Translations under genes and position numbers: made by a program
Part shown: positions 18,948 to 56,916 of the stretch, one piece after another
How positions within the stretch are numbered: the stretch's first letter is position 1
How the letters are laid out: each line of letters opens with the position of its first letter
Assembly: GCA_973895155.1 (NCBI GenBank)
Contig: OZ316894.1
Location: 13,511,580 to 13,575,579, forward strand
Source: Marsupella aquatica
Lineage: Eukaryota > Plantae > Marchantiophyta
Direction of reading: 5' to 3'
DNA length: 64,000 nucleotides
The notes under the pieces: model-generated
Told to the model about the DNA's origin: nothing
Seen by the model: only the letters and a program-made list of their open reading frames with translations
Database searches by the model: none

Positions 18948-21608
18948 TGTCATGCGATTGACATGGGTCTTAACACCAAAAATGTCACTATGGGTGCCAA
19001 AACCTCCTTGTACCTGAGGATCACGAAGGGATGTTGTGAAGGCCGGTAAACACCAATTTATGCCCTTAACACCAGACTATCATAACAAGACTCCGTCACA
19101 CATCACCCAAGCTCAATCCCTAAGAACCAAGGTTGGGAATCAGATCCATGCTCATGATAGTTCTGGTGATAAGGGGTCTTCATATCGAGCCCGTACACAC
19201 AGGGCCTAACGCTACGGTGCGCATATGTCTATACGTATGCTTACTGTCATAGGTATATTTCTATTCCGCTGCCGGAATGTACCCATAAACCAATGACTCC
19301 TGACTGATTCCCGGCTTAGGGACTTCTAAGCCATTGCCCCACCACTCTGCCATTCCACTCTCAGCAATCAGAGTTGTGACAGCCCTCACCCAACCCGCTT
19401 CAATGCACCCTGAACACCTCTCAGTGGCGCTGCTAGTTCCATCATACACTCAGATTGCCTCATACACACACACATCCATGAGAGAAATGAGGCCTGAGAG
19501 GAAAACTCAATTAGATTCAAAGATGTGCACAATAGTTCACTGAGAACACTTGATCCGAACACTAGGGCCGAAGGCTGTCTCCTCCAGATTGTGACGTGCT
19601 TGCCCCGCAAGCCCCATGCTTGCCATGCAAGCTCAATCCTGAACCTGAGCCCGGCTAACTCCAGATTGCGATGGCAGATTGGACTCAAACCAATCCCGTA
19701 CTTGCCTTGCAAACTCAATCCTGAACTCAACCTCCTTCACTGCACTTCATTCTTGGGGGCACATACAGATCTCACACCTCCAATTCAGAACGTCAAGTTA
19801 CGCATGCATAGTTGACTCGACTTCAAAGCTGGTACCAGGCCTAACGGTGATCTACCCCAGACTGCAATGAGGCCCGGCCTCACGCTTGCCCTGCAAGCTC
19901 AGCTCTGGCCATAGATCCCTTAGTGCTCTCCACCAGACAAAGGCCTGGACTCCCCATGGATCACGTAGCCTTGCCAGACTGAATTGTAAATGCTCCTCCT
20001 GCTGCCCCTTAATCAGTATCTCAGCCTCCCTAATGTGCCCACCGCAAATCGAATTGAAATGCTCCCCACAGTTTACAATCACCAATACATCACCTATCAC
20101 CAAGGCTCTATATCGGGGGAAAAGAACCCAGTTGTGTTGCCCACTAGAAAGAGCCACAATCTAGCTCGCAAACCTAGCAACCCGTTGCTGTGAAGCTTGG
20201 CTGATTACTCCCTGAGTAATAGCACAACCAAGCTCTCCCCAACACGCAGCGTCCAAGTCCAGCCTTGCTTGCACAGAGCTCCTCCCTGCTGCTTAGTCTA
20301 AGGGAGATCACACAACTGAAGTCCCCCCCCTTGCCTCTACCGGGGGGCTGCTCTATATACTCTCATACTGAGCCCAAATGGGTGGATACTACGCTGCTGG
20401 AGCCCCATCCCAGCCCTAACAGAGCCGCCACTATCTCTAACTACTGAACCCTAACTCGCAACTTTATTTCTATCTCGAATTGGCTATGTACTTCGGATTT
20501 GGCCCTCCTCCATGGTTTTTGCGAGCTTGCGCCTCCTCTCCCGATTTCTCTATTCAACCATTTGCTGCGTGGATAGCAGCGTTGGAAGCGGCTTGAGCTC
20601 CTCTTTCCAACGAGGTCAATTATAGCCGATTTGGTCAAATACACAGAGAGTTATGCCCCCGCAACCGAGAGGGGGTACTCACTGTTGCGCTAACCCGAGT
20701 TACATAGCTAACCCGAGTTCGGCTAACCTAGCTATCCTATCTAACTCGAGTAGAGCTAACCCGTGGTCTCAGGTTAGGCCGTTACCCGCTATCCACTATC
20801 TGCTAACCTAGCCTAAGCTGAGCCCGAACCCGAGCTTACCTATGCTAACCTGAGCCCGAGTTTAGGCTAACCCGAGTTAAGTCTAACCCGGGATCAATCT
20901 AATCCGAACTCGGGTTAAGCCTAAGCTGAAGTTGTGCTTACTTGAGCTAAGCTGAAGCCGTGCTTACCTGAGATAAGCTGAAGCCGTGCTTACCTAAGCT
21001 AAGCCATGGCCGAGCTTGGGTTAACCCGAAATTGAAGCCGAACCCGCTAATTCCGGCCACAAGTTAACCCGTCACACTAATCAGGTTGTATCTTCCTTAA
21101 TACACCTCCGTTTCCCAAGTGTTTTATATCGATTTTACTCGTCTTGACCAGATCTTTCTAATGCTCTTTACAGATCCGGATTTGGTGACATATTGAACGA
21201 GATATGGTCGCCAACCACCCGCGACATAGCCTTTTATTTCCCTAACATTCTAAGACTAGACTATGAACCACTAACCTAACTAAAAAACTGAAGCTACACA
21301 CCCAAGACATTCAAATTTTATCATGAGAACAATCACCATACCACACAACTTCATATTCAGTTATGGAGACTCGCTTCCTCCTCTCTTCCCCAGCTTCTCC
21401 TTTGTGGCCTTGACAGTGACTACCTCAACTGTGTTTGCCTTGGTTGTGCAGTCTTCAAACTGAAATACCTTTATCCCTACTCTTAACGCCATGATTGCCC
21501 TTATTCTTGCCAGCTTGCTAATTGTTATGCGGTATCAATAGCTACTCCTTGCATACAGCAACCTAATTACTCAGATTATAGAATAAGGACCATGTCATCG
21601 GCGTCACA
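18948..21608 (-). mobile_element. 2.66-kb solo LTR (family C) nested in the family A solo LTR
   Basis: TGTCATGCG..GCGTCACA; TSD CTTTG at 18943-18947 and 21609-21613; the empty site GCGCCTTTGCTAACAA is intact in the other copies. Confidence 0.92.
20688..21070. repeat. Cluster of TAACCCGAGTT / AACTCGGGTTA-like units plus a 26-bp tandem array
   Basis: Many CTAACC(C)GAG units in both orientations; TAAGCTGAAG(C/T)(C/T)GTGCTTAC repeated with period 26 from ~20921. Confidence 0.8.
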
Positions 21609-24305
21609 CTTTGCTAACAAATCATCGGCGGCTGCAACTTTGGGTCGTAGTTGCAGAAACTCAGCCTCTTGAGCCGCAACTTCGTTCTTTAAGTATACGG
21701 ACTCCACCCGGTACCGCTCTATCCTCTGAAGGGCCTCTGACTGGGCCCGACCTGCCTTTACTGCGGCAACTAACTCCTGATTGAAGAAACAGGCTACCTT
21801 CCGGGCCATGAACTCCCCGGTATCCCGGGCAATTTGATGAGAGAAATCTCCTAGAAGCCCGTTCAGAAATGTACCCGGTACGAAGAGTTCCGGGTGGTCC
21901 AGGTTGTGCCTGTCCGGAGTTGGGCACGGGCAGACGTCAACACGCGCGGGGGCTGGGGCTGTGACATCCAGCCCTGGGGACGTAATGTTGGAAGGGGCTG
22001 GAGTGTCCTCCTGCAGCAATGTCCGGTTCTCTGGAATAGCCACCGGTGGGTCTTTGGGAGACCCGGGCTTGAGTAAGACCTCCGCTGTACCGACTTCTGT
22101 ACTTAGCCCGGCCTGTTGGATCGCATCTATGGTTGCGATAACCGACCCATCCGGTACCTCCTCGGTTACGACTACAGCTACTTGTGGGGGTGGGGTGGGT
22201 GAAGTTTGCGTGTCCGCTGGACCTCGGGCCTCGGGTTGGGGCCGTCTCTCCAAGACCGTGAAAACCCACCTAGCTGGGACCAGCTTTGTAATGTTGACAC
22301 GAGGAAGGGTTCGTCGATCAAACCGAGCATACCACTCAAGAATGATCTCGATGTGGCTAGCGAAGTACGCCTTCCCGCCAACGTCTTCCTTCGCCGCTCC
22401 ATCTCTTCATGGAATTTCTTAGCAAAGTAGGACGCTCACTTCCTAGGTCAATAGTTCTTGACCAAGATAACCTGGGCGGCGGAGATCTCCCCCCGGGGTT
22501 CCATCATGTGGAGGGCGTACCTTTGGAACTCCAGTCGCTTAGCTATCTCGGGGATGAGGCAGGTCCTCATCACGAACCCGTTGTCCACTGCTCCCTCTGA
22601 GGGAAAACTCGAGGATTGGTACTTGGCTCCCTTGCCCCCGGGAGCCCGTGATTCGACTCGATGGTCACCTTCGGGTAATCCGAAGATCATCTTGAGCCGT
22701 TCTTCCATGAGGGACACATTCCTTCCCCGTAGCCGAGTATGTTGACGTGCGTCATCATAATTCTTGACGAATTCTGTCATGTCCTCCCTGTAGTACCTGC
22801 AAGTGTTCCAGGGGAGAGAGGTGAGGTGCTCGAATCCCTGAGTCTTCAGGTACATTGCATGCTTGGGATGGAGGATGTTCTTATGCACGTTTTCCCCCAT
22901 GCGGTGCATTGTCACCTTGGCCACGGCTACCGTGGCCAAGGGTAACCCGGATGCAGTGGTGGGTTCCTTCCTCTTCTTCCCCCGTGACTGGCTCGGGGAG
23001 GGTGACACCTCCCCATCCTCTCGATCGGGCATAGGTAGTGCTACCGCCGTTAGTATTGGTCCCGGGGCGGCCACGGTCACCGTGTTGTCTGCTGGAGCCG
23101 CTCCTTGGGTCCGAGCATGGGGAGGGGACGATGTAGTGTCGGCCCCCTGAGTGTTTGCTCCTCTGGGCCGCCTGAGCAAGGGTGGGGTAGCCTCGTCATC
23201 GTTGCTAAGGTCCACAGCGTTGATGACGGAGCGTACTTGTACTGCTGGTGGGGCGATCGGCGGTGGGGGTTGGCTAGGCTGAGACTGAGACTGAGACTGA
23301 AGCTGAGCCTGAGCCTGAGTCTGCGTTGGTGCAGGTACGGGTATGGGGTCGACTCGGTCGGCGCCGGTGGTTGCGGGTCTAGTTCCCATGAAGCTCTGCA
23401 GGTGCTGGTAGAAGTTCTCCGAAGCAAGTGCAGACAACCTTGTCGAACGGGTAGTGCTAGACTCATTGTTGATGATAGCCCAAACCTAAGCAGGGATGTG
23501 GTCGAAGTGATGTCGTTGCAAGTCGATCGTACCCGGGATATTGAAGACCTCGTCCGGAAGCTGAAGCAATGCTTCCCAGAAACCGATATATTTGTCTCTG
23601 TTGAAGAAGTACCCAGATACCTCTGCTGGTCGGTAAAGCTCGCTCTGAGACGGGTAGTCAAAGTTAAGGATGTAGTGGTGTCGTCCTGCTAGGCGGATGG
23701 CTCTCTCGTACTCGCATTCTATTTTGTATCGGCGCGGGTTGACGTGTTTCAATGAGTCGGCCAAGTGTCTTCCGGTAGATAGGAACTGCGTCCAAAATTG
23801 AATGGCCGAACTGGAGAGGATCGTGTGCGACATTCAAAGGAGATAGTAGTGGCGACTTAGAGCGAATGAGAGAGCTGGGGTTGAAGCTGGCGCGTGGACT
23901 GATGGACTGGTGCACTCCAAAGGGTCGGCTCCCTTTTTATACCTTGAGGGCTTGTCGATCCCCCGACATCTCCTCGTTGCCTATAGGCTGAACCGTTCAC
24001 ACTTCTAGTGTACCGGCCACTCCGCCGGTCTGAGTCACCGCGTGTCAGTGGACGCCTCCTGAAGTTTGTTATACGGACCCGAGGGAGGGGCCCCTCCATG
24101 CTCGTAACCCGGGCGTGCGAATGGCGACGCGCCGCCAGCCCGAACATGAATTCCCCTTATTGACTAATGATTTCCTACTCATAATGGCTACCTAAATACT
24201 GTCGTTATGCTAATCATAGCGGCCTAAGATACCCCTAATGCGCGTGCTAGGCACGGTTTAGACCGAATTACTCATTACTTGCCATACCGGCGGCGTCACA
24301 TGGGA

Positions 24306-38690: not shown

Positions 38691-38803
38691 GCTAGCGATC
38701 TCGCTAGCTCAATGAACCAAGTAAAATTGTTCAAATCCTTACAAAACACCCTTTAGGACTTCATGTATTTAGTGGTCATTTTTTGGCTAGCGATGTCGCT
38801 AGC
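38691..38803. promoter_or_regulatory. Pair of 18-bp palindromes in the divergent transposase/ParB intergenic region
   Basis: GCTAGCGATCTCGCTAGC 38691-38708 and GCTAGCGATGTCGCTAGC 38786-38803. Function inferred. Confidence 0.6.
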
Positions 38804-39188
38804 AAAAATATTTCCTCATAAGAGACCATTGTGACCGTTTATATCCGTTGGAATTGGTCAACGGGTACCTATATGTCAACGGTACGGTACAGTACCGGAC
38901 ACCTGTCTCTTTGTCATTAGATACTTTTCTTTCAGTCGTGAGTTCGGTGGTTCGTATTTCCGGAAGTACATGTATACCTGACGGTGTCTGAAAAATGATT
39001 GCGAGAAGAGTCGTACAGAATATTTGTATCTCTTTTCACGACCGGGCGCAGCATTCAGGTGAAAGCAACAGACGAGGGTACGATTCTGTCTTTGATTGGA
39101 AGATCGATTCTCGGGTTTTTTATGTTCGCAAAGCGTGTCGCCCTCGACCTTGACCTGTTCATACCCTTATCACTTCACGGACCCCCTG

Positions 39189-41132: not shown

Positions 41133-44100
41133 TGTCACGTCATCGGCTGCGACCTTAACTCAGACTTCAGCTTAGACGGGCACATCCCTCGTAAACCTGA
41201 GGGTTTGGGCAGGAAGGGAAGCACGTAATGCACCTTATTCTCGTAAACTAGCGCTAAGTACGCATACTGCTAAATACGGACACCTCCTAGGTATGGTTTG
41301 TGTTCCGCCGCCGGAACGTACCTTAGTCGATAGCAGGATCGACCCCGGCTTAAGGGCTTCTAAGCCTTTGTGCTGTCCGCCTTTGATCCGGATTCGATGA
41401 TACAGGTCCTCAACCCGTGCTCGCAACCACTTACCCGCAGGCTGCACCCTGTGCACGTCTCGGGTAGTGCGTTCGGCCTGGCACTGCCACCTATATACGA
41501 GAAACCCACACACATACACGCGCACATGCATACAATCTCAATTTACACGAAGGAAAATGATGGGAAAAGATTTTACTACAAAGGGAACATACGCGTACAC
41601 TTAGTTGACCCGACAGCCCCGGAATGAACAGGTTCAAGGCCGAGGGTGCACACTACAACGGAGCCCGGCTCCGCACTCGCCCGACGAGCTTAGTCCTACC
41701 CCCTCCCCTTGGTACTCTTTCATTCCCAGAGGTCGGGACTCCCCGCACATACCGCGGACGCCCAACTCTGCAACTAAAAACCCCCCCTCCTCTACCGAGG
41801 GGTGCACTAAATACTAAGGGACGAGGGATGGGGTGTCCTCTCGCCGAAGATTTGCTGACTAAGGTCCTAACTAAGCTGACAGTCAGGCCGGAAAACGTCT
41901 GTGTCTTATTAGAAGATCCTAATCTACGCAGGCTGGACAACACGGCAGCGCTATTGTACCTAAGGCAGGTGCCTGTCCCAAGAGCCTGACTAAGCCAGTC
42001 CTAATCCTAATCTATTCCTACTCCGCTGCTAATGCCTGGCACGCTTGCCAGAGCCGCCCGAATGGGAGCGGCCATCCCGCTGCCTTCGAAGCCTGTCATT
42101 GTCCGCCTTGAGGAGCTGGACCTGGTCCATCAGAGATTCGTTCTCTCGCCTCGCCGCGTCCGTCTCCTCTGCTGCCTCCTGACAAGCCTCCTCCAGCTGC
42201 TGGGCGTCACTTGTCAGTTTATCCGCCAGCTGGTCCTGCTTCTCGGCCTCGGTTTGGAGCCGCGCCACCTCGGCCTGCAGCGTGGCTATCTCCACCGTGT
42301 CCCGTTGGGCCCGTTCCTCGGCCTCCTCCAGGTCTTTCTGCCAAGTGACAGTTTGATTCTTCAAACTGTCAATCTGGTTCCGGAGTCGTGTAATCTCGGC
42401 CTCGTTCCCAGCTTTGGCCTGTTCGGCTAGGGCGGTAAGAGCGTGCGCCTTTGCTAACAACTCATCGGTGGCTGCAACCTTGGGTCGTAGTTGCCAAAGC
42501 TCAGCCTCTTGAGCCGCAACTTCATTCTTTAGGTACACGGACTCCACCCGGTACCGCTCTATCCTCTGAAGGGCCTCTGACTGGGCCCGACCTGCCTTTA
42601 CTGCGGCAACCAACTCCTGATTGAAGAAACAGGCTACCTTCCGGGCCATGAACTCCCCGGTATCCCGGGCAATCTGATGAGAGAAATCTCCCAGAAGCCC
42701 GTTCAGAAATGTACCCGGTACAAAGAGTTCCGGGTGGTCCAAGTTGTGCCTGTCCAGAGTTGGGCACGGGCAGACGTCAACACGCGCGGGGGCCGGGGCA
42801 GTGACGTCCAGCCCTGGGGACGTAACGTTGGAAGGGGCTGGACTGTCCTCCTGTAGCAATGTCCGGTTCTCCGGAATAGCCACCGGTGGGTCTTTGGGAG
42901 AACCGGGTTCGGGTAAGACCTCCGCCGTACCAACTTTTGTACTTAGCCCGGCCTGTTGGGTCGCATCAACGGTTGCGACACCCGACCCATCCGGTACCTC
43001 CTCGGTTACGACTACAGCTACTTGTGGAGGTGGGGTGGGTGAAGCTGGCGTGTCCGCTGGACTTCGGGCCTCGGGTTGGGGCCGCCTCTCCAAGGCCGGG
43101 AAAACCCACCTAGCTGGGACCAGCTTTGTAACGTTGACACGGGGAAGGGTTCGTCGATCAAACCGGGCGTACCACTCAAGAATGATCTCGATGTGGCTAG
43201 CAAAATACGCCTTCCCACCAATGTACAGCGTCTTCCTTCGCCGCTCCATCTCTTCATGGAATTTCTTAGCGAAGTACAACGCCCACCTCCTAGTTGGATA
43301 GTTCTCGACCTGGATAACCTGGGCGGCGGAGATCTCCCCCCGGGGTTCCATCATGTGGAGGGCGTACCTCTGGAACTCCAGTCGCTCAGCTATCTTGGGG
43401 ATGAGGCAGGTCTTCATCACGAACCCGTTGTCCACTGCTCCCTCTACGGGAAAACTTGAAGATTGGTACTTGGCTCCCTTGCCCCCGGGAGCCCGTGATT
43501 CGACTCGATGGTCACCTTCGGGTAACCCGAAGATCATCCTGAGCCGTTCTTCCGTGAGGGACATACTCCTTCCCCGCAGCCGAGTATGTTGACGCGCGTC
43601 GTCATAATTCGTGACGAACTCCGTCATGTCCTCCCCATAGTACCTGCAAGTGTTCCTGGGGAGGGAGGCGAGGTGCTCGAATCCCTGAGTCTTCAGGTAC
43701 ACCGCATGCTTGGGATGGAGGATGTTTTTGTGAACATTTTCCCCCATGCGGTGCATCGTCACCTTGGCCACGGCTATCGTGGCCAACGGTAACCCGGATG
43801 CAGTGGCGGATTCCTTCCTCTTCTTCCCCGTGACTGGCTCAGGGAAGGTGACACCTCCCCATCCTCCCGATCGGGCCTGGGTAGTGCCACTGCCGTTAGT
43901 AACGGGCCCGGGTCGGCCACGGTCACCATGTTGTCTGCCGGGGCCGCTTCTGGGGTCAGAGCAAGGGTTGGGGACGATATAGTGTCGGCCCCCTGAGCGC
44001 TTGCTCCTCTGGGCCGCCTGGTCAAGGGTAGGGTAGCCTCGTCGTCATCGCTAAGATCCACAGCGTTGATGACGGAGTGTACTTGTGCTGGCTGGGCGAT

Positions 44101-44724
44101 CGGTGGTGGGGTTTGGCTAGGCTGCGGCTGAGGCTGAAGTTGAAGCTGAGCCTGAGGTTGTATGGGTACGGGTACGGGTATGGGTACGACTGAGTTGGTC
44201 ATGTTGGTTGCTGGCCGAGTTCCTATGAAACTCTGTAGGTGCTCGTAGAAGTTCTCCGAAGCAAGTGCAGACGACCTTGTCGAACGGGTAGTGCTGGACT
44301 CGCTGTTGATGATAGCCCGAACCTGAGCAGGGATGTGGTCGAAGCTGGCGTGTGGACTGATGGACTGGTGCACTACAAAGGGTTGGCTCCCCTTTTATAC
44401 CTTGAGGGCTTGTCGATCCCCCGACGTCTCCTCGACGCCCATAGGCTGAACCGCTCACGCTTGTGGTGTGCCGGCCACTCCGCCGGTCTGAGTCAGCGCG
44501 TGTCAGTGGCCGCTTCCTTAAGTTTGTTATACGGACCCGAGGGAGGGGCCCCTCCACGCTCGTAACCCGGGTGTGCGAATAGCGACCAGCCGCCAGTCCG
44601 AACCTGAATTCCCCCTTATTGCCTAATGATATCCTACCCATAATGATTATCTAAATATTGTCGTTATGCTAATAATAGCGGTCTAAGACACTCCTAACGC
44701 GCGTGCCGAGCGCAGTTAGACCGA
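41133..44724 (-). repeat. 3' LTR (379-bp internal deletion; inner terminus missing)
   Basis: Matches 50774-54773 apart from the deletion at GGTCGAAG (44337-44344) and loss of the last ~34 bp. Confidence 0.9.
42029..43786 (-). CDS. LTR-embedded accessory protein, 585-codon open segment (plant-transposon-protein-like domain plus coiled coil)
   Basis: GFEHLASLP..MTEFVTNYD..TRLRGRSMSLTEERLRMIFGLPEG and a C-terminal heptad-rich region; N-terminal part disrupted upstream. Confidence 0.75.
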   Translation of the reverse strand: MATIAVAKVTMHRMGENVHKNILHPKHAVYLKTQGFEHLASLPRNTCRYYGEDMTEFVTNYDDARQHTRLRGRSMSLTEERLRMIFGLPEGDHRVESRAPGGKGAKYQSSSFPVEGAVDNGFVMKTCLIPKIAERLEFQRYALHMMEPRGEISAAQVIQVENYPTRRWALYFAKKFHEEMERRRKTLYIGGKAYFASHIEIILEWYARFDRRTLPRVNVTKLVPARWVFPALERRPQPEARSPADTPASPTPPPQVAVVVTEEVPDGSGVATVDATQQAGLSTKVGTAEVLPEPGSPKDPPVAIPENRTLLQEDSPAPSNVTSPGLDVTAPAPARVDVCPCPTLDRHNLDHPELFVPGTFLNGLLGDFSHQIARDTGEFMARKVACFFNQELVAAVKAGRAQSEALQRIERYRVESVYLKNEVAAQEAELWQLRPKVAATDELLAKAHALTALAEQAKAGNEAEITRLRNQIDSLKNQTVTWQKDLEEAEERAQRDTVEIATLQAEVARLQTEAEKQDQLADKLTSDAQQLEEACQEAAEETDAARRENESLMDQVQLLKADNDRLRRQRDGRSHSGGSGKRARH

Positions 44725-47700
44725 GGCGTCGTCATCTTGATGGTGGTACTTTTTTACACGATCGTAGCTGATTCGTGTGGGGAGTAAATCGCCGGCATAC
44801 GTCGCAAGCTCCAAAGATCCGTTACGGTAGATCTGATTGACAAGGAAGGGCCCTAACCACCGGGTATGAAGCTTCCCTGGAAACTACATGTACCTACTAT
44901 CGTACAGAAGGACTAGATCGCCTGCCACGACGTCGACCCTCCGTAGTCCTTTGTCGTGCTGCTTCTTCGAAGTTGCCTGTTTCTTCACGGCGTGTCGAGC
45001 TGCTAGTAGCCATGCTTCTTCCAAGGCTTCAATCTGATAAGCTCGGTCTGACAAACTTTCAGATTCAGGTAAGCAATCCCGAATGCTGACTCGTGGAGTG
45101 TGTACTTCAAACTTGACGGGCACTAACGAATGTTGGCCGAACACAAGAAAGTACGGGCTGTGACTCGTAGTAGTTTTGTAAGCGAGATTATACGAGTACA
45201 CCGCTGCGTATAACTTATCATCCCAATCCGTTTTGTGCGCAACTACAGTTTTGTTGAGGATCTTCCCAATGATACCATTTGCCCTCTCCGCCATCCCGTT
45301 GGCTTTAGGATGATACGGGGTAGTCTTGCGGTGCTTGACTAGGTAACGCTCCGTAAGCTGGGCTACGGTATCATTGAGGAAGTGGGTTCCACGGTCGCTT
45401 ACCAATTCTAAGGGCGGGCCGAATCGGGTGAAAATCTGTTCCTATAAGAATCTGGCACTGGTTGCGGCATCGTCCTTTACCGTAGCCCGTGCTTCGACCC
45501 ACTTGGTGGAGTAATCAATAGCTAGTAGGATGTACCTGCATCTTTGCCTTCGGGTAACGGGAGTAAATGGCCCGATATAATCAATTCCCCATTTTTTGAA
45601 TGGTGCCAATGGGAGCACAGATGTGAGCGAGTGATGATGAGCCCGTCTTGGGGCCCCAGCCCGCTGACACAGGTCACAGCCCTTAATGAAGCGCTGTACA
45701 TCCCGATGCAACGTCGGCCACCAATACCCCGAGTCCAGAATCTTTCGGGCTATCGTGACCGCCGCGAAATGGCCTCCAGCTTCTTCTTCATGCAAGGCCC
45801 GCATCACGATAAGCGTCTCCTTATACTCCAAGCAGCGTCATAACTTCCCATTAACTCCTTCCTTATGTAGGTGACCCTGTACCATGACGTAAGGCCCGGC
45901 TTTCTGTAGAAACACAGCGGCGGCCTCCTGATTGATGCCGTCAGGGATGCAGCCTGTTAAAAGGAAGGTGATTATCGAGCCGTACCACGTTGGTGTCCCC
46001 TCCCCTACGTGGAACAACTCCTCATCCGGAAAAATATCATCAATTGGCTGATCGACTGGTATGCCGTCCAACCGTGAAAAGAAGTCGGCATTGAGGTATG
46101 CCTTTCCTGGCCGAACCCGAACTTCGTAGTTAAATTCCTGGAGAAGTAGCACCCAACGGGCTATCCGTCCCGTTACGTCTGCTTTGTTGACCATGTACTT
46201 CAGGCTGTCGTGATCCGTGTGGAAGATGACCTTGTAGCCGAGCAGATAGTGCCGGAACTTCTTACATGAGTAGATTATGCCCAGTGCCTCTCGATCCGTG
46301 GGGGAATAATTTTTTTCGGCTGTGAATAATTGTCGGCTAGCCAAGTAGATGGGGTGATCGCGTCCGTCTATATCAAGCTGACTAAGCACAGACCCGATAC
46401 AGAACCCTGACACGTCAACATACACGTGGAACTCCTTCTTCTAGTCTGGAGTGACCATGATAGGTGCGGTGGTGAGTCTTTTACGGAGTTCTTCGAAAGC
46501 AACCCGTCTCCTTGGGGTCTCCTTGATCACCGCATCCTTTTTCATCATCTTTGTTAGGGGCAAAGCTATTTTAGCAAAATCTTTAATGAACCGACGATAA
46601 TACCCTACGCAGCCCAAGAAGGATCGTACTGCTTTTTGATCCACGAGGAACACCACTGCCATCCAGGCCGCAACTTTCTCTTGGTCCACCTCAATGCCCC
46701 GTTTGGACACACGATGCCCGAGTAACACCCCCTCCTCTACCCCGGAGAAGCATTTGGCGGGATGTAGTTTGAGGTTAACATCTCGGCATCGTTGCAACGT
46801 TCGTCTTAGGTGTTCGGGGTGCATGGCAACGGTTCCGAAGATGGCCAAGTCATCGATAAATATCTCCAGAAATTCCCGTAGGAAATCGTGGAAGATATTC
46901 ATCATCAGGCGCTGAAACATGGCCGGGGCGTTACACAGACCAAAAGGCATCCTCCGAAATGCGAAAGTCCCCCACTCCGTCGTGAAAGTTGTTTTGAGCT
47001 GATCCGCGAGGCGAATCCAGATTTGGTTATAACCTGAATACCCGTCAAGAAATGTATAGATTTCATTTCGGGCTACCATATCTAGAACCATATCCGTGAA
47101 TGGTAATGGGTAATGGTCTTTGCGGGTTGCGTCGTTCAGCCTACGGTAGTCCTGACAAATACGAATCTTAGGTTTTCCATCCGTACCTCCCTTCTTGGGT
47201 ACAATGACAATGGGAGAGACCCAGTTGCTGGCCATTACCGGGTAGATGATATCGGCGGTGAGGAGACGATCAATTTCCTCCTTCACTAAGATGGAGTACC
47301 TCGGGTTCATGCGACGTTGTTGCTGCCGTACCGCATGGGCTCCTAGGTTCAGATCGATCGTGTGTTCTCCCAACTCGGGGGAGACGCCTGTTAAATCATG
47401 ATGACTCCATGCAAACACATCTTCATATTCCTTGAGCAAAGCTTGGATGGATTTTTCAGCCTCCCCTGTCAGAGCGTGGCCCAGGTTAAAAGATTTGTCC
47501 ATCCCAATGGTGTACTTCCGGTAGTGCTCCTTCCTGATGACTTCAACCTGGTTTCGCAAGCTCGGGTCCAGGCTCGCATCAAGCTCGGCTAACCGAACTC
47601 CTCCGTACATGGGTGGAACCGGGATTGGTCTCGGGATTGGAGTTACTTCCTCCAATTGCGGAATGGACGGATCCCATGAGACTCGTTTCTTATGTCTCGG

Positions 47701-50649
47701 TCTCGAGTTTTCGGCCTCGGGCGGTTGTTGGGCTGGTTCGTGGTCACGAGGCTCTACAACGGTAGAAGCAGCCTCGGCTCCCTGCTTAGCTGGAGCCGTG
47801 TCCTCCGTCTCAACGAGTTGTTCATGCGTTTCCTCATCCCTGGCAGTAGATGTGCTTGGGGTGGACTCAATGGCAGCCCTCGGGTAATTTAGGAGATGTG
47901 TTTCGCGGGTTGCTTCAACTCCGAAGACATCTTCCTCGGACAGGGACGAGATGAGTTCAATCATATTGAGTTCCTCTTCCTCCGAGGTCTCCGAATCATA
48001 TTCCTTGGGTCCTTGTGGGGTTTCTCCTTGATAATCGTCCATTGCCCATGATACCCGTACGGTGGGTTCCCCGAACCGTAGCTCCTTCTTTCCCCAATCC
48101 GTGACTACGTGGCCACCGTACAGCCAGGGCCTGCCCAGAAGAACCGGGTAAGAGGAGGGACGAACCGGCCTCATAACTAGGAAGTTGAGATAGAACTCCA
48201 CCCCTCCCACCAGAGTGAGCACTCGTGTGAGCGTGCCTAATGGGAGGACCCTTGCCCCGTTTGCTAATCTGATAGCTCGGGCTGTGGGTTGATACGTGAG
48301 GTATCCTAACTTGACTGACGTTTCTTCAGTCATGATGTTGACTCCCGCTCCTCCGTCTACAAGAACCATCTTGATGGTACAATTATTAATTTCGATCGAG
48401 ATGTCTGGCGCTCCAAGGTCCTTGCATATCATGTTGCAGTCCGCGATCCCAACTCGGGGTAGTCTCCTCCTTCGGCGACCCATGAGCAACTCCCTTAGTT
48501 GCCATTTGTACTGTGGGTTGTTCTGCTGCAGTTGCCCCACCGTCGCTATAACCGGGCAACTCTTCACGTCTTCCTTAATATCGTAGTTCTCCTTTTTATC
48601 CTCTTTCGGCTGCAGCTTGGCTTCCTCTTGCTTTTCTTGCTCCTCTTGCTCCTGGCGCCGGGCGGTCTTGGCTGCTTTGATGTCCTTATCGATTGCCTTC
48701 TGGTATTCCCGAGCTTTGTAGGCCTCCAGCTATTTCTTTACCAATTCTTCGATGCGGGGGAAAAATAGCTTAGGGTCGTCCCGTCGGTAGTCATCGTCCT
48801 TCTCCGGGGGTATATCTATTGCTGGCTGCACTGGAGTAGTATCTTGCTTTTTCCTTCGTTTCTCCTCCGTCTTCTCTTCCTTCCGTTCGGCCCTTGTCGA
48901 CACTCGGTAGCACTCGGCCTCATCCAATGGATCAGGGTGCTCTGCTACATCCACCAAATTCACCCACTCGGTGTTGTCATCTTGCCATTCTACAGCAATC
49001 ATTTGGACGACTGCATCGCTCGTGGCTGGTCCAGCCTAGGCCAGTCTAGCTGCGCTCGTTCGAGCAGCGATTACCAACGGACAGTTGGCCCTGGAATGAG
49101 CCTCCGTTTTGTAGACTTGACATAGTGGGGTGCCTCGGCCATCTCCCTGTCGTCTTGGTTCGGTGCATTCCCTTGCAAAGTGTCCTGGCTTTTCATAGTT
49201 ATAACAAACCGGGGATCGCCAAATCCCTGGCTTAGGAGGGATGCTCGGGTTACTGATAACTTGGAAACTCCGGCCATTGTTTGGGTAGGGGTACGCAGTT
49301 CTACCCGCTAAATTACGCGGACCTACCATTGAAATCTGGTACACGGAATCAGGAGGGTCCTCAAAGAAATACTCTATGGACTCTGATTCGGGACCCGGGT
49401 TGTCAACGTCATCCAGCTCTACTTGGTGAACTCGATTCTTCCACCTTGGGCATTCCTGCACCACATGGCAGGATTGGAAGCACTTTGAACACCACGCATG
49501 GGCTCGAATCTGAGATGGCTTCTTCTTCTCCACCGGCTTTTCCGCAAGATGTACTGACAGTGCTTTGAGTCGATCCGTGATTTCGTTCAGCTTGTCTGCT
49601 TCGGCAGCCTTTGGATCTGGTATCATTCTTCGCGCCCGGGGTTTGATCTTCCCCTCCTTCTTCACTCGTCTCTTCTTCTTTTTGCTCTGGCTTTCGCTCT
49701 CCAAGTCACTTCCTGATGAACTGGATGTAGAGGATCCGGTGCTTGAAGCTGAATCCGAACTGGATTCCGTCTCCGAGCTGGACGAGGTCGAACGATGTTT
49801 CTTTTTCTTCTTGCGTTTCTTCTTCCTCTCGTCCGATTCGGAGTCACTGTCACTGAAGGTCTCGTACTTACCCTTCTTGCGGCGTGCTCGCTGGCTCCGC
49901 CGGGAGTTATAGGTGGACTCCCGTTAAGTTTCGGCGCACGCTATGGCCGCCTGCATTGAAATCGGATTATTCTGGCGTACCCAGAATTACGTATTTGTGG
50001 GCAAACCATGAAGGAACCATGTAAGCTGGAGCGCGTCTCCCGGCCTGGGCCGGATCTTGGCCACAAGTTTCTGAAACTTCTGAATGAACTTCCGCAGGGA
50101 CTCCTTCTTTCCCATGCGAAGCTGGCCAATCTTTAATAGAGAACGTTGTTCCGATCCAATGGCACAAAACTCCTGCAGCAATGCAGCTTGGAATTGTGCC
50201 CATGTAGTCCCGGGCGGCAACGAGTTGTACCATGGACGAGCTTCTCCCCGCATCACTCCCGGGAGGACGGTTAGCTTAATGGCGTCTTCCCCATTAGCTT
50301 TAGCAGTGGCTTCAAACTCATCCAACCATTCATCCGGATCATCCCCATGACGCCCCTTGAAAGGTCGATAATGAAATCGCGATCGTTGCAATATTTGTGG
50401 AGGAGCTTGAGCAACACGGGCCATCGGTGGAGCGGCTGCCATAGGTGGTGGTGGTGGTGGTGGTGGTGGTGGCGGTGGAACCGCAGGAGGACAGGTCGAA
50501 CCGGACCCCGAAGGTCCAGGGGGTATGTTCATACGTTGGGGCGAGTGCGAGTCTTCCGAGTCCGAAGAATCGGAACTTGTTGTGGTTGCACTTTCTCGTT
50601 CGCTGGTCAATCTCCTCAAGTAAGCTGCTTGAGAACGAGTGACGGGCAT
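44716..50649 (-). pseudogene. gag-pol: Gypsy gag-pol, single reading frame with multiple premature stops
   Basis: All listed ORF pieces share one frame. Gag FKGRHGDDPDEWLDEF with CCHC knuckles; PR VLVDGGAGVN; RT LDGYSGYNQI, MPFGL, FIDD; RH YVDVS..DREAL..TDH; INT GHF..C..C, WGIDY, SDRGTHF, NGMAER; WLGPF tail. Confidence 0.95.
50443..50477. repeat. (GGT)n microsatellite encoding a poly-Pro tract in gag
   Basis: GGTGGTGGT.. run; PPPPPPPPPPP on the minus strand. Confidence 0.9.
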
Positions 50650-50741: not shown

Positions 50742-50760
50742 CCCCCTCCATCTAGCGCCA
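50742..50760 (-). promoter_or_regulatory. Putative primer-binding site, 13 nt from the LTR end
   Basis: Minus strand TGGCGCTAGATGGAGGGGG between the 5' LTR and gag ATG; tRNA identity not determined. Confidence 0.7.
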
Positions 50761-50773
50761 AAAACAAAGGCTA

Positions 50774-53700
50774 TGTCACGTCATCGGCTGCGGCCTTAAC
50801 TCAGACTTTAGCTTAGACGGGCACATCCCTCGTAAATCTGAGGGTTTGGGCAGGAAGGGAAGCACGTAATGCACCTTATTCTCGTAAACTAGCGCTAAGT
50901 GCGCATACTGCTAAATACGGACACCTCCTAGGTATGGTTTGTGTTTCGCCGCCGGAACGTACCTTAGTCGATAGCAGGATCGACCCCGGCTTAAGGGCTT
51001 CTAAGCCTTCGTGCTGTCCGCCTTCGATCCAGATTTGATGATACAGGTCCTCAACCCGTGCTCGCAACCACTTACCCGCAGGCTGCACCCTGTGCACGTC
51101 TCGGGTAGTGCGTTCGGCCTGGCGCTGCCACCTATATACGAGAAACCCACACACATACACGCGCACATGCATACAATCTCGATTTACACGAAGGAAAATG
51201 ATGGGAAAGGATTTTACTACAAAGGGAACATACGCGTACACTTAGTTGACCCGACAGCCCCAGAATGAACAGGTTCAAGGCCGAGGGTGCACACTACAAC
51301 GGAGCCCGGCTCCGCACTCGCCCGGCGAGCTTAGTCCTACCCCCTCCCCTTGGTACTCTTTCATTCCCAGAGGTCGGGACTCCCCGCACATACCGCGGAC
51401 GCCCAACTCTGCAACTAAAAACCCCCCCTGCCTCTACCGAGGGGTGCACTAAATACTAAGGGCCGAGGGACGGGGTGTCCTCTTGCCAAAGATTCACTGA
51501 CTAAGGTCTTAACTAAGTTGACAGTTAGGCCGGAAACGGCTGTGTCTTATTAGAAGATCCTAATCTACGCAGGCTGGACAGCATGGCAGCAATGCTGTAC
51601 CGAAGGCAGGTGCCTGTCCCAAGAGCCTGACTAAGCTAGTCCTAATCCTAATCTATTCCTACTCCACCGCTAATGCCTGGCACGCTTGCCAGAGCCGCCT
51701 GAATGGGAGCGGCCATCCCGCTGCCTTCGAAGCCTGTCATTGTCCGCCTTGAGGAGCTGGACCTGGTCCATCAGAGATTCATTCTCTGACCTCGCCGCGT
51801 CCGTCTCCTCTGCTGCCTCCTGACAAGCCTCCTCCAACTGCTGGGCGTCACTTGTCAATTTACCCGCCAGCTGGTCCTGCTTCTCGGCCTCGGTTTGGAG
51901 CCGCGCCATCTCGGCCTGCAGTGTGGCTATCTCCGCCGTGTCCCGTTGGGCCCGTTCCTCGGCCTCCTCCAGGTCTTTCTGCCAGGTGACAGTTTGATTC
52001 TTCAAACTGTCAATCTGGTTCTGGTGTCGTGTAATCTCGGCCTCGTTCCCAGCTTTGGCCTATTTGGCTAGGACGGTAAGAGCGTGCGCCTTTGCTAACA
52101 ACTCATCGGCGGCTGCAACCTTGGGTCGTAGTTGCCGAAGCTCAACCTCTTGAGCCGCAACTTCATTCTTTAGGTACACGGACTCCACCCAGTACCGCTC
52201 TATCCTCTGAAGGGCCTCTGACTGGGCCCGACCTGCCTTTACTGCGGCAACCAACTCCTGATTGAAGAAACAGGCTACCTTCCGGGCCATGAACTCCCCG
52301 GTATCCCGGGCAATCTGATGAGAGAAATCTCCCAGAAGCCCGTTCAGAAATGTACCCGGTATGAAGGGTTCCGGGTGGTCCAGGTTGTGCCTGTCCGGAG
52401 TTAGGCACGGGCAGACGTCAACACGCGCGGGGGCCGGGGCAGTGACGTCCAGCTCTGGGGACGTAACGTTGGAAGGGGCTGGAGCGTCCTCCTGTAGCAA
52501 TGTCCGGTTCTCCGGAATAGCCACCGGTGGGTCTTTGGGAGAACCGAGCTCGGGTAAGACCTCCGCCGTACCGACTTCTGTACTTAGCCCGGCCTATTGG
52601 GTCGCATCAATGGTTGCGACACCCGACCCATCCGGTACCTCCTCGGTTATGACTACAGCTACTTGTGGAGGTGGGGTGGGTGAAGCTGGCGTGTCCGCTG
52701 GACTTCGGGCCTCGGGTTGGGGCCGTCTCTCCAAGGCCGGGAAAACCCACCTAGCTGGGACCAGCTTTGTAACGTTGACACGGGGAAGGGTTTGTCGATC
52801 AAACCGGGCGTACCACTCAAGAATGATCTCGATGTGGCTAGCAAAATACGCCTTCCCGCCAATGTACAGCGTCTTCCTTCGCCGCTCCATCTCTTCATGG
52901 AATTTCTTAGCGAAGTACGACGCCCACCTCCTAGGTTGATAGTTCTCGACCTGGATAACCTGGGCGGCGGAGATCTTCCCCCGGGGTTCCATCATGTGGA
53001 GGGCGTACCTCTGGAACTCCAGTCGCTCAGCTATCTCGGGGATGAGGCAGGTCTTCATCACGAACCCGTTGTCCACTGCTCCCTCTGCGGGAAAACTTGA
53101 AGATTGGTACTTGGCTCCCTTGCCCCCGGGAGCCCGTGATTCGACTCGATGGTCACCTTCGGGTAACCCGAAGATCATCCTGAGCCGTTCTTCCGTGAGG
53201 GACATACTCCTTCCCCGCAGCCGAGTATGTTGACGCGCATCGTCATAATTCCTGACGAACTCCGTCATGTCCTCCCCGTAGTACCTGCAAGTGTTCCAGG
53301 GGAGGGAGGCGAGGTGCTCGAATCCCTGAGTCTTCAGGTACACCGCATGCTTGGGATGGAGGATGTTTTTGTGAACATTTTCCCCCATGCGGTGCATCGT
53401 CACCTTGGCCACGGCTATCGTGGCCAACGGTAACCCGGATGCAGTGGCGGATTCCTTCCTCTTCTTCCCCCGTGACTGGCTCGGGGAAGGTGATACCTCC
53501 CCATCCTCCCGATCGGGCCTGGGTAGTGCTACTGCCGTTAGTAACGGGCCCGGGTCGGCCACGGTCACCATGTTGTCTTCCGGGGCCGCTCCTGGGGTCG
53601 GAGCAGGGGGTGGGGACGATATAGTGTCGGCCCCCTGAGCGCTTGTTCCTCTGGGCCGCCTGGTCAAGGGTAGGGTAGCCTCGTCGTCATCGGTAAGATC

Positions 53701-54773
53701 CACAGCGTTGATGACTGAGCGTACTTGTGCTGGCTGGGCGATCCGTGGTGGGGTTTGGCTAGGCTGCGGCTGAGGCTGAAGCTGAAGCTGAGCCTGAGGT
53801 TGTATGGGTACGGGTACGGGTACGACTGAGTTGGTCATGTTGGTTGCTGGCCGAGTTCCTATGAAGCTCTGTAGGTGCTGGTAGAAGTTCTCCGAAACAA
53901 GTGCAGACAACCTTGTCGAACGGGTAGTGCTGGACTCGCTGTTGATGATAGCCCGAACCTGAGCAGGGATGTGGTCGAAGTGATGTCGCTGCAAGTCGAT
54001 CGTACCCGGGATATTGAAGACCTCGTCCGGAAGCCGAAGCAATGCTTCCCAGAACCCGATATATTTGTCTCCGTTGAAGAAGTACCCGGATACCTCTGCA
54101 GGTCGGTAAAGCTCGCTCTAAGACGGGTAGTCAAAGTTAAGGATGTAGTGGTGTCGTCCTGCTAGGCGGATGGCTCTCTCGTACTCGCGTTCGATTTCAT
54201 ATCGGCACGGGTTGGCGTGTTTCAATGAGTCGGCCAAGTGCCTTCCGGTAGATAGGAACTACGTCCAGAATCGAATGGCCGAGCTGGAGAGGATCATGTG
54301 CGACATTCAAAAGAGATAGTAGTGGCGACTTAGAGCGAACGAGAGAGCTGGGGTCGAAGCTGGCGCGTGGACTGATGGACTGGTGCACTACAAAGGGTTG
54401 GCTCCCCTTTTATACCTTGAGGGCTTGTCGATCCCCCGACGTCTCCTCGACGCCCATAGGCTGAACCGCTCACGCTTGTGGTGTGCCGGCCACTCCGCCG
54501 GTCTGAGTCAACGCGTGTCAGTGGCCGCTTCCTTAAGTTCGTTATACGGACCCGAGGGAGGGGCCCCTCCACGCTCGTAACCCGGGTGTGCGAATAGCAA
54601 CCAGCCGCCAGTCCGAACCTGAATTCCCCCTTATTGCCTAATGATATCCTACCCATAATGATTACCTAAATACTGTCGTTATGCTAATAATAGCGGTCTA
54701 AGACACTCCTTACGCGCGTGCCGAGCGCAGTTAGACCGAATCACTCATTAACCGCCGTACCGGCGGCGTCACA
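50774..54773 (-). repeat. 5' LTR, 4000 bp
   Basis: TGTCACGTC..GGCGTCACA; same termini as the TSD-flanked solo LTR 17629-24300. Confidence 0.95.
51670..54306 (-). pseudogene. Full-length LTR-embedded ORF (~878 codons; one frame, four TAG stops seen)
   Basis: ATG 54306 is in frame with ORFs 52594-54042, 52060-52524 and 51670-52005; TATAAAA on the minus strand at 54408-54414. Confidence 0.85.
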
Positions 54774-56916
54774 CTTCTTTCTTAGTCAAGAAGTTCCACG
54801 AGGAGATGAAGCAGCCAAGGAAGACCTTGTACCTCGGCGGAAAGGCATATCTCGCAAGCCACATCAAAATAATCATCGAGTGGTACGCCCGTTGTGACCG
54901 CCGAAGCCTCCCTCAGCTCAATGAGCCCGACCTAACCCCATCATTGTGGGTATTTCCGGTGCAGGAAAGGCGACCCCAGCCCAAGGCCAGAAGTCCGGCG
55001 GCCGTGAGGCCCATGACTACCCTGGCCCCACAACCAGGCCCTGCCGCCCCTCCGTCTGTACCAAACAATGCGATTATCGCGACCTTGGATTCGATCAACC
55101 AGGCCAGCGCAACCATCAAAGTCAGGCTGGTAGAAGCCGGCCCCGGGCCCAAGACTGCAATTATAAAGGACACCCCGGTACCCTCCACGGCTGTCCAAGA
55201 GAACCGCCCATCTCGTGCAAACCCAACCCTTTTTGCCGTCATATTTCAAGGGCTGGACGTCATCACTCTGGCTCCCGCACGAGCTGGGGTCTGCCCAAAC
55301 CCAAGTGGGCATAATCTAGAGTACCTGGAACTCTTTGCACCGGGCACGTTTTTGAATGGGTTGTTGGGTGACTGCTCCCAACAAATTGCGCGAGATACAG
55401 GGGAGTTCATGGCACAAAAGGTGGCCTACTTCTTCAACCAGGAATTGGTTGCAGCCGTGCAAGGGGGGCATGCACAGGCTGAGGCCATGTAGAGGATAGA
55501 GCAGTATAGAGTTGAGTCTACCCACCTGAAAGATGAAGTTTCAGCCCGGGAGACCTCACTTCAATTGCTTCAACCTCAGTTATCGGCCACTAAAGATCAG
55601 GTGGCCAAAGCTAGGGCCCGAGCAGCCTTGGCAGAACAGGCCGAAGTCGGGAAGGATGCCGAGATTGCACGGCTCTGAACCCAGATTGACGGTATGAAGG
55701 GACAAGTCATCATCTGGCAAAAAGATGTGGAAGAGGCCAACACCTGGGCCCAGTGAGACATGGCCAAGATAGACGCCCTGAAGGCGGAAGTGGCAGGGCT
55801 TCAAGGAGAAGCCACAAAGCAGGCCCAATTGGTGGACAAGCTGACAAGCGACGCCCAGCAATTGGAAGAGGCATGCCAAGAAGCCACGGAGGAGACAAAC
55901 ATGGCAAAGAAAGAGAACAAATCTCTGGTGGACCAGGTCCAACTGCTCAAGCAGGACGCCGACCGGCTCAGGAGGCAGCGGGATGGTTGCTCCAAATCCA
56001 ACTCAGGCGGGTCTGGCAAGCGTTCTAGACATTAGCAGCGGAGTAGGTTTAGGATAGAGTTAGGAGTAGGGTAGTCAAACAATAAGGACAAGCGCCAAAA
56101 CTAGTTAGCAGCGTTGTCCTATCCGACCAACCTTTGTAGTTAGAATCTTAGAATAAGACACGCCATTTTACAGCCTAACAATTAGCAGAGTTTAGAATCT
56201 TGGATAGCATAGATTTGAGCACGTGGCCGCTCCGAGCCCCGGCTCTTAGTATTTAGTGCACCCCCAGTAGAGGTAGGGGGGATTTTAGTTTCAGAATCGG
56301 GCATCCGCAGTATGTGCGGGGAGTCCCGGTCTTTGTGAGTAAAAGAGCACCAAGGAGGGAGGGTACAACTAAGCTTGCTGGGCGAGTGCAGAGCCGGGCT
56401 CCGTTGTAGTGTACGCCTCTCTGCCGTTGGGCATATTTACTCAAGAGATGTCGAGTCAACCGTGTGTATGTGTATGACGGGGTCTGAAGTAAAGTCTTTT
56501 CCCACCATTTCCTTTGTGTAAACCAAGATTGAATATTTGTGAGTTTAGTTGCATGTATGAATCTTGTATATGGGTAGAGAATGCTTGGCCGAACGCATTA
56601 TACAAGCCATGCACGGGGTGTTGGATGCGGATAGTGGTTGCAAGCCCGGGTTGGATACCCGTATCATCAGATCCGGATCGGAGGCGGACAACACAAAGGT
56701 TTAGAAGTCCTTAAGCCGGGGTCGATCCAACTATCGACTTAAGGTATGTTCCGGCGGCAAAACACAAACTATACCCATGACATTTCTATAAGTAGGACTA
56801 GGCGCACTTAGCGCTAGATTACGGGAGTAAGGTTCAGTTTGCACATCCCTCCTTGCCCAAACCCTCAAAACTAATGAAGATTATGCCCGTCTAAGCCAAA
56901 ATGTTATGACGTGACA
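54774..56916 (+). mobile_element. 3' half of a diverged family A-related LTR in opposite orientation
   Basis: Encodes KKFHEEM..KTLYLGGKAY..ELFAPGTFLNGLLGD..QLEEACQEA..SGGSGKRSRH (to 56035); ends GACGTGACA at 56916. Confidence 0.9.

What the first reader, a model, noticed from the sequence alone, without database searches (positions are those of the whole stretch)
50774..54773. 4-kb LTRs that contain a complete ~878-codon gene: solo LTRs as self-contained gene cassettes
Seen: the LTR limits are fixed by the TSD-flanked solo copy (17629-24300). Each LTR has TATAAAA (54408-54414), ATG 54306, one sense frame to 51670, then a second TATA-like box (~51449-51456) and the U5-side motif. Four copies occur in the window, including a diverged one (54774-56916) with protein-level conservation. 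Established: Athila/Tat/Ogre accessory ORFs normally lie outside the LTRs; LTR-encoded genes are known mainly from retroviruses (e.g. MMTV sag in U3). Inference: the ORF sits in an expanded U3 with its own promoter, is duplicated at each replication, and survives solo-LTR formation.
Basis: partly seen in the sequence, partly recalled or inferred. Interest (0 to 1): 0.82.

Follow-up and report, generated by a model that had tools for sequence, protein, structure and literature searches.

The report
Retrotransposon LTRs carry a VANC-fold gene
A plant jumping gene, likely from a liverwort, has 4-kb terminal repeats that each hold a long protein gene shaped by selection (broken in all four copies here), whose core is predicted to fold like the anti-silencing protein VANC21, so each repeat left in the genome would carry its own, likely silencing-countering, gene.

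Summary
The layout is real. The 4,000-bp unit at 50774-54773 is the LTR of a Ty3/gypsy element: TG…CA ends, a primer-site-like motif and gag-pol next to it, a solo copy with a 5-bp target duplication, and many unrelated flanks at the same end in four public runs. Two thirds of it is one 878-codon frame under purifying selection between subfamilies (dN/dS 0.2-0.4; indels in threes).

Correction: no copy here is intact. This one has four stops; two copies lack the start. An intact, collinear 906-aa homologue exists elsewhere; named homologues are from a liverwort.

New: the protein core folds confidently, and its only clear PDB match is VANC21 (Z 8.0, next 2.2; 10% identity, borderline scores). 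There is no membrane helix, so it is not env-like. It is likely a DNA-binding, silencing-countering accessory protein; binding, expression and the U3 position are untested.

I found no plant precedent in print; MMTV sag is the closest layout. This scan already noted the same layout and fold in a 4.7-kb LTR family elsewhere in this genome; a probable member of that family also lies in this window.

The parts
50774..54773 (-). Copy A: 4,000-bp 5' LTR (TGTGACG...CGTGACA)
   Evidence: boundary at 54773 with heterogeneous flanks in 4 of 4 runs
54408..54414 (-). TATAAAA followed by a pyrimidine-rich stretch; candidate promoter of the LTR gene (inferred)
   Evidence: present in A, B, C
51670..54306 (-). 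878-codon accessory-gene frame inside the LTR, broken by 4 in-frame stops in this copy
   Evidence: collinear intact 906-aa homologue
53932..54306 (-). N-terminal helical domain (about aa 1-125), conserved in homologues, no known family
   Evidence: pLDDT about 90 in the homologue model; dN/dS 0.29 A-C
52732..53421 (-). Core domain (aa 296-525), predicted VANC21-like fold; a basic RGKKRK motif lies just upstream
   Evidence: homologue
51712..52233 (-). Long C-terminal helix, predicted coiled coil; a basic GKRARH tail follows
   Evidence: dN/dS 0.12-0.18 over codons 646-878 for the four pairs A-C, B-C, A-D, B-D
51449..51456 (-). Second TATA-like box, start of a module shared with an ORF-less LTR; candidate promoter of the genomic RNA (inferred)
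50742..50760 (-). Primer-binding-site-like motif TGGCGCTAGA..., 13 nt from the LTR end (tRNA-Arg type by recall, not tested)
44728..50649 (-). gag-pol frame (gag, zinc knuckle, protease, RT, RNase H, integrase), 1,974 codons with 8 stops
41133..44724 (-). Copy B: 3' LTR lacking its first 34 bp, with a 379-bp deletion and a frameshift; 96.6% identical to A
17629..24300 (-). Copy C: solo LTR with TSD TGGGA, about 90% identical to A, split by a nested insert
18948..21608 (-). Nested 2,661-bp LTR-like insert without a long ORF (TSD CTTTG); shares the downstream LTR motifs; tandem arrays upstream of its TATATAG
54774..56916 (+). Copy D: 3' half of a diverged LTR (about 72% nt identity), frame conserved
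7418..12106 (-). Copy E: candidate 4,689-bp solo LTR of a second family with a broken gene holding the same core (25% aa identity); limits provisional

Best explanation
The 4-kb unit is the LTR of a Ty3/gypsy retrotransposon, likely of a liverwort, and it holds a selected accessory gene whose product is predicted to have a VANC/PMD-type DNA-binding core and a coiled coil, and likely binds the element's own DNA to counter host silencing. SHOWN: LTR limits, the frame inside them, purifying selection, the frame kept in a solo LTR (about 0.95). PREDICTED: VANC21-like fold with real kinship (about 0.7). INFERRED: (1) the gene lies in an expanded U3, with its own mRNA starting near the first TATA and the genomic RNA starting near the second box (about 0.65); (2) it likely got there when plus-strand priming moved upstream of a sense accessory gene that lay between pol and the 3' LTR, the place where Athila-type ORFs lie; (3) the protein likely enters the nucleus by its basic motifs, oligomerises through the coiled coil and recognises short motifs in the LTR; (4) it would then lower DNA methylation or Polycomb marks on its family, as VANC and MAIN/MAIL proteins do (about 0.5). 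Young solo LTRs would keep supplying it in trans until they decay; the four copies here have decayed.
For: LTR: TSD and ends; primer-site-like motif then gag-pol; loose ends at 54773 in 25, 18, 26 and 7 contigs of 4 of 4 runs with only 0.38-0.48 agreement, i.e. many different flanks; no inner terminal repeat. Selection: dN/dS A-C 0.31 (CI 0.24-0.41) and A-D 0.21 (0.15-0.29); 0.40-0.44 and 0.35-0.41 with transition weighting; shifted sense frames 0.90-1.50; A-D indels in threes 5 of 5 inside the frame, 0 of 15 outside, p 6e-5. Real protein family: 44 hits at E<=0.001; intact 906-aa homologue, 29% identity end to end, E 9e-97. Fold: core model pLDDT 90.5; VANC21 first in Foldseek (prob 0.99, TM 0.53) and in the wide search (Z 8.0, rmsd 4.2, 205 aligned; the only other row Z 2.2, of 48,161 chains); first again with the homologue model (Z 8.2, rmsd 3.9, 196 aligned). 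The core is net basic in 16 of the 20 rows printed, with conserved K/R columns. VANC binds short motifs in its own transposon and removes methylation (PMC5735166, passages); its domain resembles PMD of MAIL1/MAIN, and some PMD clades are Gypsy-encoded (bioRxiv 2024.09.27.615353, PMC5418596, PMC13547354, passages). For U3: the module downstream of the gene is shared with an ORF-less LTR-like insert and with copy E.
Against: No copy in the window is intact, and A-B divergence is neutral (dN/dS 0.80-1.11), as expected after insertion. The fold match has 10% identity, Foldseek E-values of 0.028 and 0.31 (not significant), and Z 8.0-8.2, the edge of what the tool calls a common arrangement; the two models share alignment rows, so they are not fully independent. 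No Pfam match to PMD, DUF1985, ATHILA or Transposase_32 for the window protein; 1 of 42 aligned rows hits Transposase_32, at E 0.059. The non-coding LTR has no tandem motif array like VANDAL's (only ACTAAG x7 in A exceeds the 95% null of 6, and it is x4 in C). The first TATA is the more canonical one, and several TATA-like sites exist. A shared fold shows no function, and PMD proteins act both for and against silencing.
Confidence: 0.5

Rival explanations
1. Same gene in the LTR, other job: the protein binds DNA or chromatin to guide integration, import the pre-integration complex or regulate transcription, without removing silencing marks.
For: No VANDAL-like motif array in the LTR; long coiled coil and basic motifs fit a tether; nuclear regulatory roles have been proposed for other accessory ORFs (PMC7264820; PMC11963269, passages).
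Against: The only clear fold match is an anti-silencing protein; a place inside the LTR keeps the gene when integrase is lost, which suits a factor acting in trans on chromatin (inference).
Confidence: 0.3
2. The gene lies in a very long R or U5: the first TATA is the only promoter, and the ORF is the 5'-most cistron of the genomic RNA, like Ogre ORF1 or Retrosat2 ORF0 but upstream of the primer site. This changes the position, not the function.
For: TATAAAA plus a pyrimidine-rich stretch about 360 bp into the LTR is the most canonical promoter; the second box is TATTTAG, a weaker match.
Against: It needs a minus-strand strong-stop DNA of about 3.6 kb and gag translation behind a 2.6-kb ORF (inference); the downstream module is shared with an ORF-less LTR that has TATATAG at the matching place.
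Confidence: 0.3
3. The 4-kb unit is not an LTR but a separate small mobile element that happens to flank a gag-pol region.
For: A and B share no TSD, and B has lost its 5' end and polypurine tract; no polypurine tract showed among the loose ends printed.
Against: Primer-site-like motif 13 nt from its end, then gag; direct orientation and 96.6% identity on both sides of gag-pol; TG...CA ends with a 5-bp TSD; no transposase or RT inside.
Confidence: 0.04
4. The gene is an env-like membrane protein.
For: Sense orientation downstream of pol in the 3' LTR; Athila-type ORFs have been called env-like (PMC7264820).
Against: No hydrophobic stretch long enough for a membrane helix: highest 19-residue hydropathy 0.88-1.29 in 4 of 4 proteins tested; no clear viral fold match.
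Confidence: 0.03
5. The frame is a neutral by-product of a GC-rich repeat.
For: All four copies are broken.
Against: dN/dS well below 1 under three weightings, frame-keeping indels, distant homologues with the same domain order; stop density like that of gag-pol (4 in 878 vs 8 in 1,974 codons).
Confidence: 0.01

Closest known systems
VANC anti-silencing proteins of VANDAL (Mutator-like) transposons; VANC21 structure 9lnj/9lnk
   Same: Predicted fold of the core (Z 8.0-8.2, about 200 residues); transposon-encoded accessory protein; VANC21 is also reported to have a coiled coil (PMC13547354, passages).
   Different: 10% identity; host element is an LTR retrotransposon, not a DNA transposon; VANC is described as dicot-specific (PMC13547354); no tandem target arrays found in this LTR; binding and demethylation untested.
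Extra ORFs of non-chromovirus Ty3/gypsy elements: Athila ORF-1 (PF03078), Transposase_32 (PF20167), plant mobile domain (PF10536) of Ogre, Transposase_28 of Retand
   Same: Accessory ORF conserved across a family; weak leads to Transposase_32 and ATHILA (atlas scores 0.84 and 0.83 for a homologue; E 0.059 in 1 of 42 rows); PMD is structurally like the VANC domain (bioRxiv 2024.09.27.615353).
   Different: Those ORFs are described in the internal region, 5' or 3' of gag-pol (PMC7264820; PMC6317226; PMC11963269); here the gene is inside the LTR. No Pfam cut-off is met.
MMTV sag/naf ORF in U3 of the LTR
   Same: A protein gene inside the LTR, with a U3 promoter of its own (PMC9412291, passages); copied into both LTRs.
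   Different: Animal retrovirus, unrelated protein; here two thirds of a 4-kb LTR is coding, and U3 is inferred, not mapped.
Rice Retrosat2/RIRE3/RIRE8
   Same: LTRs over 3 kb, many solo LTRs, an extra ORF (PMC3485330, passages).
   Different: ORF0 is described upstream of gag-pol and was searched separately from the LTR; the elements are chromoviruses (Tekay, PMC6317226 table).

Membership tests
LTR (Ty3/gypsy) | Direct repeats flanking gag-pol in the order gag-PR-RT-RH-INT | tested here: met
LTR (Ty3/gypsy) | TG...CA ends and 4-6-bp TSD | tested here: met
   copy C, TSD TGGGA; heterogeneous flanks at 54773. The A+B pair has no common TSD.
LTR (Ty3/gypsy) | Primer binding site after the 5' LTR | tested here: met
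   TGG-starting motif 13 nt after the end of A; tRNA identity recalled, not tested
LTR (Ty3/gypsy) | Polypurine tract before the 3' LTR | tested here: inconclusive
   junction deleted in B; none among the loose ends printed (28 rows not shown)
LTR (Ty3/gypsy) | U3-R-U5 map (cap and poly(A) sites) | not testable with these tools
   needs RNA reads
Tat clade (TatI-III, Ogre, Retand) | Additional archaeal-type RNase H | tested here: inconclusive
   none between RH and INT (109 residues apart), so not the Ogre/Retand order; the region after INT is deleted
Non-chromovirus (OTA/Phygy/Selgy) | Placement in an RT/RH/INT tree with REXdb references | not tested
   no reference sequences at hand; assignment rests on a non-Met-type primer site, a long LTR and recall
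Athila ORF-1 / Transposase_32 / PMD / DUF1985 Pfam families | Profile score above the curated cut-off | tested here: not met
   0 of 28 proteins; 1 of 42 rows at E 0.059
VANC | VANC21-like fold of the conserved domain | tested here: met
   predicted only: Z 8.0, rmsd 4.2, 205 aligned; Z 8.2, rmsd 3.9, 196 aligned; borderline scores
VANC | Encoded by a Mutator-like VANDAL transposon | tested here: not met
   encoded in a gypsy LTR; works-like claim only
VANC | Target motifs in tandem arrays in non-coding parts of the element | tested here: not met
   for copies A, C, D; arrays occur only in the ORF-less nested insert
VANC | Sequence-specific DNA binding and loss of methylation | not testable with these tools
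   needs bench work
env-like protein | Transmembrane helix | tested here: not met
   hydropathy scan, 4 of 4 proteins

The most novel reading that the evidence does not exclude
Liverwort gypsy families have turned their LTR into a self-contained anti-silencing cassette: promoter, VANC-fold gene and target sites in one unit that is doubled at each replication and scattered as solo LTRs, which supply the protein in trans. The VANC/PMD/Athila-ORF fold would then be an old retrotransposon invention that predates flowering plants.
Probability: 0.35. Interest if true: 0.88.

Novelty: new variant of a known kind. Interest (0 to 1): 0.72.

Why it matters
Solo LTRs are treated as promoter-only leftovers, and surveys of extra ORFs describe them in the internal region. 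Here the LTR itself is two thirds gene, so every solo LTR starts as a gene copy, and unequal recombination, the host's usual way of removing retrotransposons (general knowledge), would not remove it. The fold link offers a testable function for the long-unexplained accessory ORFs of plant gypsy elements. It also bears on an open question, whether the plant mobile domain arose in genes or in retrotransposons (stated as open in PMC5418596), by placing a VANC-like fold in a likely bryophyte retrotransposon. Sequence-specific anti-silencing proteins are also of interest as epigenome tools (PMC5735166).

Tried and rejected
No whole genome is held for this window, so intact elements could not be counted. 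No RNA holder was listed; this says nothing about expression. Word-based protein searches found little: 0 hits for the core among proteins of 482-1,537 aa, 0 among proteins of 1,587-4,530 aa, 2 already known hits. Sequence searches of the PDB gave only coiled-coil noise. The viral fold library gave no clear match (best E 0.022, TM 0.22). The N-terminal domain was not folded alone; the full-length search was filled by coiled coils, so its fold is untested, not new. Atlas hits were under 0.9, leads only. The polypurine tract was not recovered from contig loose ends. Summed contig depth over the LTR was 4.2 and 5.1 times that over the internal part in two runs; this fits many solo LTRs, but the tool states depth is no copy number, so it is a hint only; the other two runs were too uneven to use. 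GTATTTAG occurs three times in the non-coding LTR and resembles the VANC21 motif YAGTATTAY; rejected as evidence: it was found after the fact, the 12 window matches include 8 in homologous LTR copies, YAGTATT is not clearly enriched (17 vs 11.3 expected, 9 of 100 shuffles), and VANC6 uses a different motif. Dating from A versus B (K2P about 0.03) was rejected because they share no TSD. No complex prediction was run. The VANC21 structure paper and Sasaki et al. 2022 are not held, so DNA-contact residues could not be compared.
Full report
WHAT IS THERE. Self-comparison shows four copies of one repeat. Copy A (50774-54773, minus strand, 4,000 bp) starts TGTGACG and ends CGTGACA. Thirteen bases after its end comes a primer-site-like motif, TGGCGCTAGA, then a 1,974-codon frame with gag, zinc knuckle, protease, RT, RNase H and integrase matches and 8 stops. 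Copy B (41133-44724) follows integrase directly; it lacks the first 34 bp, and no polypurine tract is visible. A and B have different outer flanks, so the element is rearranged. Copy C (17629-24300) is a solo copy with TSD TGGGA, split by a 2,661-bp insert with its own TSD. Copy D (54774-56916, plus strand) is the 3' half of a diverged copy.

IS IT AN LTR? A has no inner terminal repeats, so it is not a small element with short LTRs. In 4 of 4 public runs laid on 54640-54800, contigs leave the stretch at 54773 (25, 18, 26 and 7 contigs) with flank agreement of only 0.38-0.48: many independent insertions share this end. With the TSD, the primer site and the position around gag-pol, the LTR reading is firm.

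IS THE FRAME A GENE? From ATG 54306 to the stop at 51670 there are 878 codons with four internal stops. B, C and D carry other lesions, none shared with A; at one of A's stops nearly all contig depth in four runs reads otherwise. The lesions are therefore private decay, at a density like that of gag-pol. Between subfamilies the frame is constrained: dN/dS 0.31 (A-C, 867 codons) and 0.21 (A-D, 403 codons), and 0.35-0.44 when transitions are weighted 4-8 fold, with all intervals below 0.6. A-B is neutral (0.80-1.11). Shifted sense frames give 0.90-1.50; the mirrored antisense frame gives 0.35-0.40, as expected from shared third positions, but holds more stops (27-28 against 3-4 in the A-C comparison). 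A-D indels are multiples of three in 5 of 5 cases inside the frame and 0 of 15 outside (p 6e-5). Constraint is strongest in the N-terminal part, the core and the coiled coil, and weaker in the two low-complexity linkers.

RELATIVES. A search of 1.84 billion representatives with the longest open stretch gave 44 hits at E<=0.001; one (P0026) is an unrelated repeat protein. Of 10 clusters looked up, 4 are named as Calypogeia fissa (a leafy liverwort, by recall), 1 as hypothetical and 5 are unnamed. One cluster holds an intact 906-aa protein that aligns end to end with the LTR frame (29% identity, E 9e-97). Whether these homologues lie inside LTRs I could not test. Within the window a profile of the core also finds 10597-11169 (E 8e-30). 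That copy (E) lies in a GC-rich unit that carries the same downstream LTR motifs and has a candidate TG...CA pair with a 5-bp TSD 4,689 bp apart. This was the best of 7 candidate pairs, and one end lies on a fold-back arm, so the limits are provisional. It suggests two families, 25% identical in the core, with the same layout.

THE PROTEIN. Pfam gives only coiled-coil matches. The core alignment used 37 of the 44 hits plus 4 cluster members (dropped: six hits that cover little or none of the core, and P0003, replaced by its full-length cluster member). It gave a model with pLDDT 90.5. VANC21 bound to DNA is the top Foldseek hit (probability 0.99, TM 0.53, E 0.028; the next row TM 0.13) and one of only two chains above Z 2 among 48,161 (Z 8.0, rmsd 4.2, 205 aligned). 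The full-length homologue model shows an N-terminal helical domain, a disordered linker, the core, a second linker and a 165-residue helix; VANC21 is again first. Identity is 10% and the scores are borderline, but the match covers the whole domain and stands alone. I obtained this result before reading the scan's earlier notes. There is no membrane helix.

HOW IT LIKELY WORKS. Anything inside an LTR is copied to both ends at reverse transcription and stays after solo-LTR formation (established). The part of the LTR downstream of the gene shares motifs with the nested ORF-less insert, which has TATATAG where A has TATTTAG. I infer that this is the ancestral promoter-R-U5 module, and that the gene with its own TATA was added upstream, in U3, most simply by a shift of plus-strand priming that took in a 3' accessory gene. 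The rival R/U5 position stays open. VANC21 binds a short motif in non-coding parts of its transposon and causes loss of methylation (PMC5735166, passages). Its domain resembles the PMD of MAIL1/MAIN, which counter Polycomb silencing, and some PMD clades are Gypsy-encoded (bioRxiv 2024.09.27.615353, passages; PMC5418596, passages; PMC13547354, passages). I therefore commit to a DNA-binding, silencing-countering role at about even odds. Against it: no tandem target arrays in this LTR, and no binding or expression data.

WHAT IS KNOWN. Reviews and surveys place extra ORFs in the internal region: PMC7264820 (parts 1 and 2 of 3 read, the whole main text), PMC6317226 (passages), PMC11963269 (passages), PMC3485330 (passages), PMC11728184 (passage linking Transposase_32 to Athila ORF1). 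MMTV has an ORF and a promoter in U3 (PMC9412291, passages). Seven searches for a plant precedent or for the domain families (0, 3, 8, 14, 2, 25 and 2 papers) showed no plant LTR with a gene inside; most rows were seen as listings only, and PMC7319988 and PMC12885004 (passages) did not bear on it. These are exact-phrase searches of open papers. Steinbauerova 2011, Sasaki 2022 and the VANC21 structure paper were not read, and the REXdb supplements, which may list such ORFs, were not opened. The scan itself noted the same layout and fold for a 4.66-4.7-kb LTR family in this genome, and LTR-internal genes of unknown fold in two other genomes; these are unreviewed notes and not counted as support.

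VERDICT. It is a new variant of a known kind: an accessory gene of a familiar plant-transposon fold in an unfamiliar place. Interest 0.72.

Noticed in passing
window 7418-12106 (-): Candidate 4,689-bp solo LTR of a second family, with a broken gene of roughly 1,100 codons holding the same core and a long coiled coil; may belong to the 4.7-kb family in the scan's earlier notes (not compared).
   Followed up: partly
window 18948-21608 (-): ORF-less LTR-like insert with tandem arrays (26-bp and 16-bp periods, 20855-21004) upstream of a TATATAG; a candidate non-coding relative or target in trans.
   Followed up: partly
window 12020-12215: Fold-back of two arms of about 86 bp, 23 bp apart; one arm coincides with the candidate start of copy E. 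MITE-like, or two LTR starts head to head.
   Followed up: no
window 34801-41158: Divergent long ORFs without Pfam match: a minus-strand set with a SWIM-like Cys/His motif and a plus-strand pair with a ParB-like DGNHR motif (both labels recalled); likely a DNA transposon with an accessory gene. LTR copy B cuts into the plus-strand ORF.
   Followed up: no
window 3600-6048 and 14769-27440: Copia-type elements with short LTRs (196 and 169 bp); solo copy C sits inside the integrase region of the second.
   Followed up: no
window 54666, 51449, 50911 (-): GTATTTAG three times on one strand in the non-coding part of the LTR; candidate binding word, not beyond chance when found after the fact.
   Followed up: partly
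window 57435-59267 (+): Broken frame with an aspartyl-protease-like DSGS motif (recalled) and no Pfam match, right of copy D; likely another retroelement.
   Followed up: no
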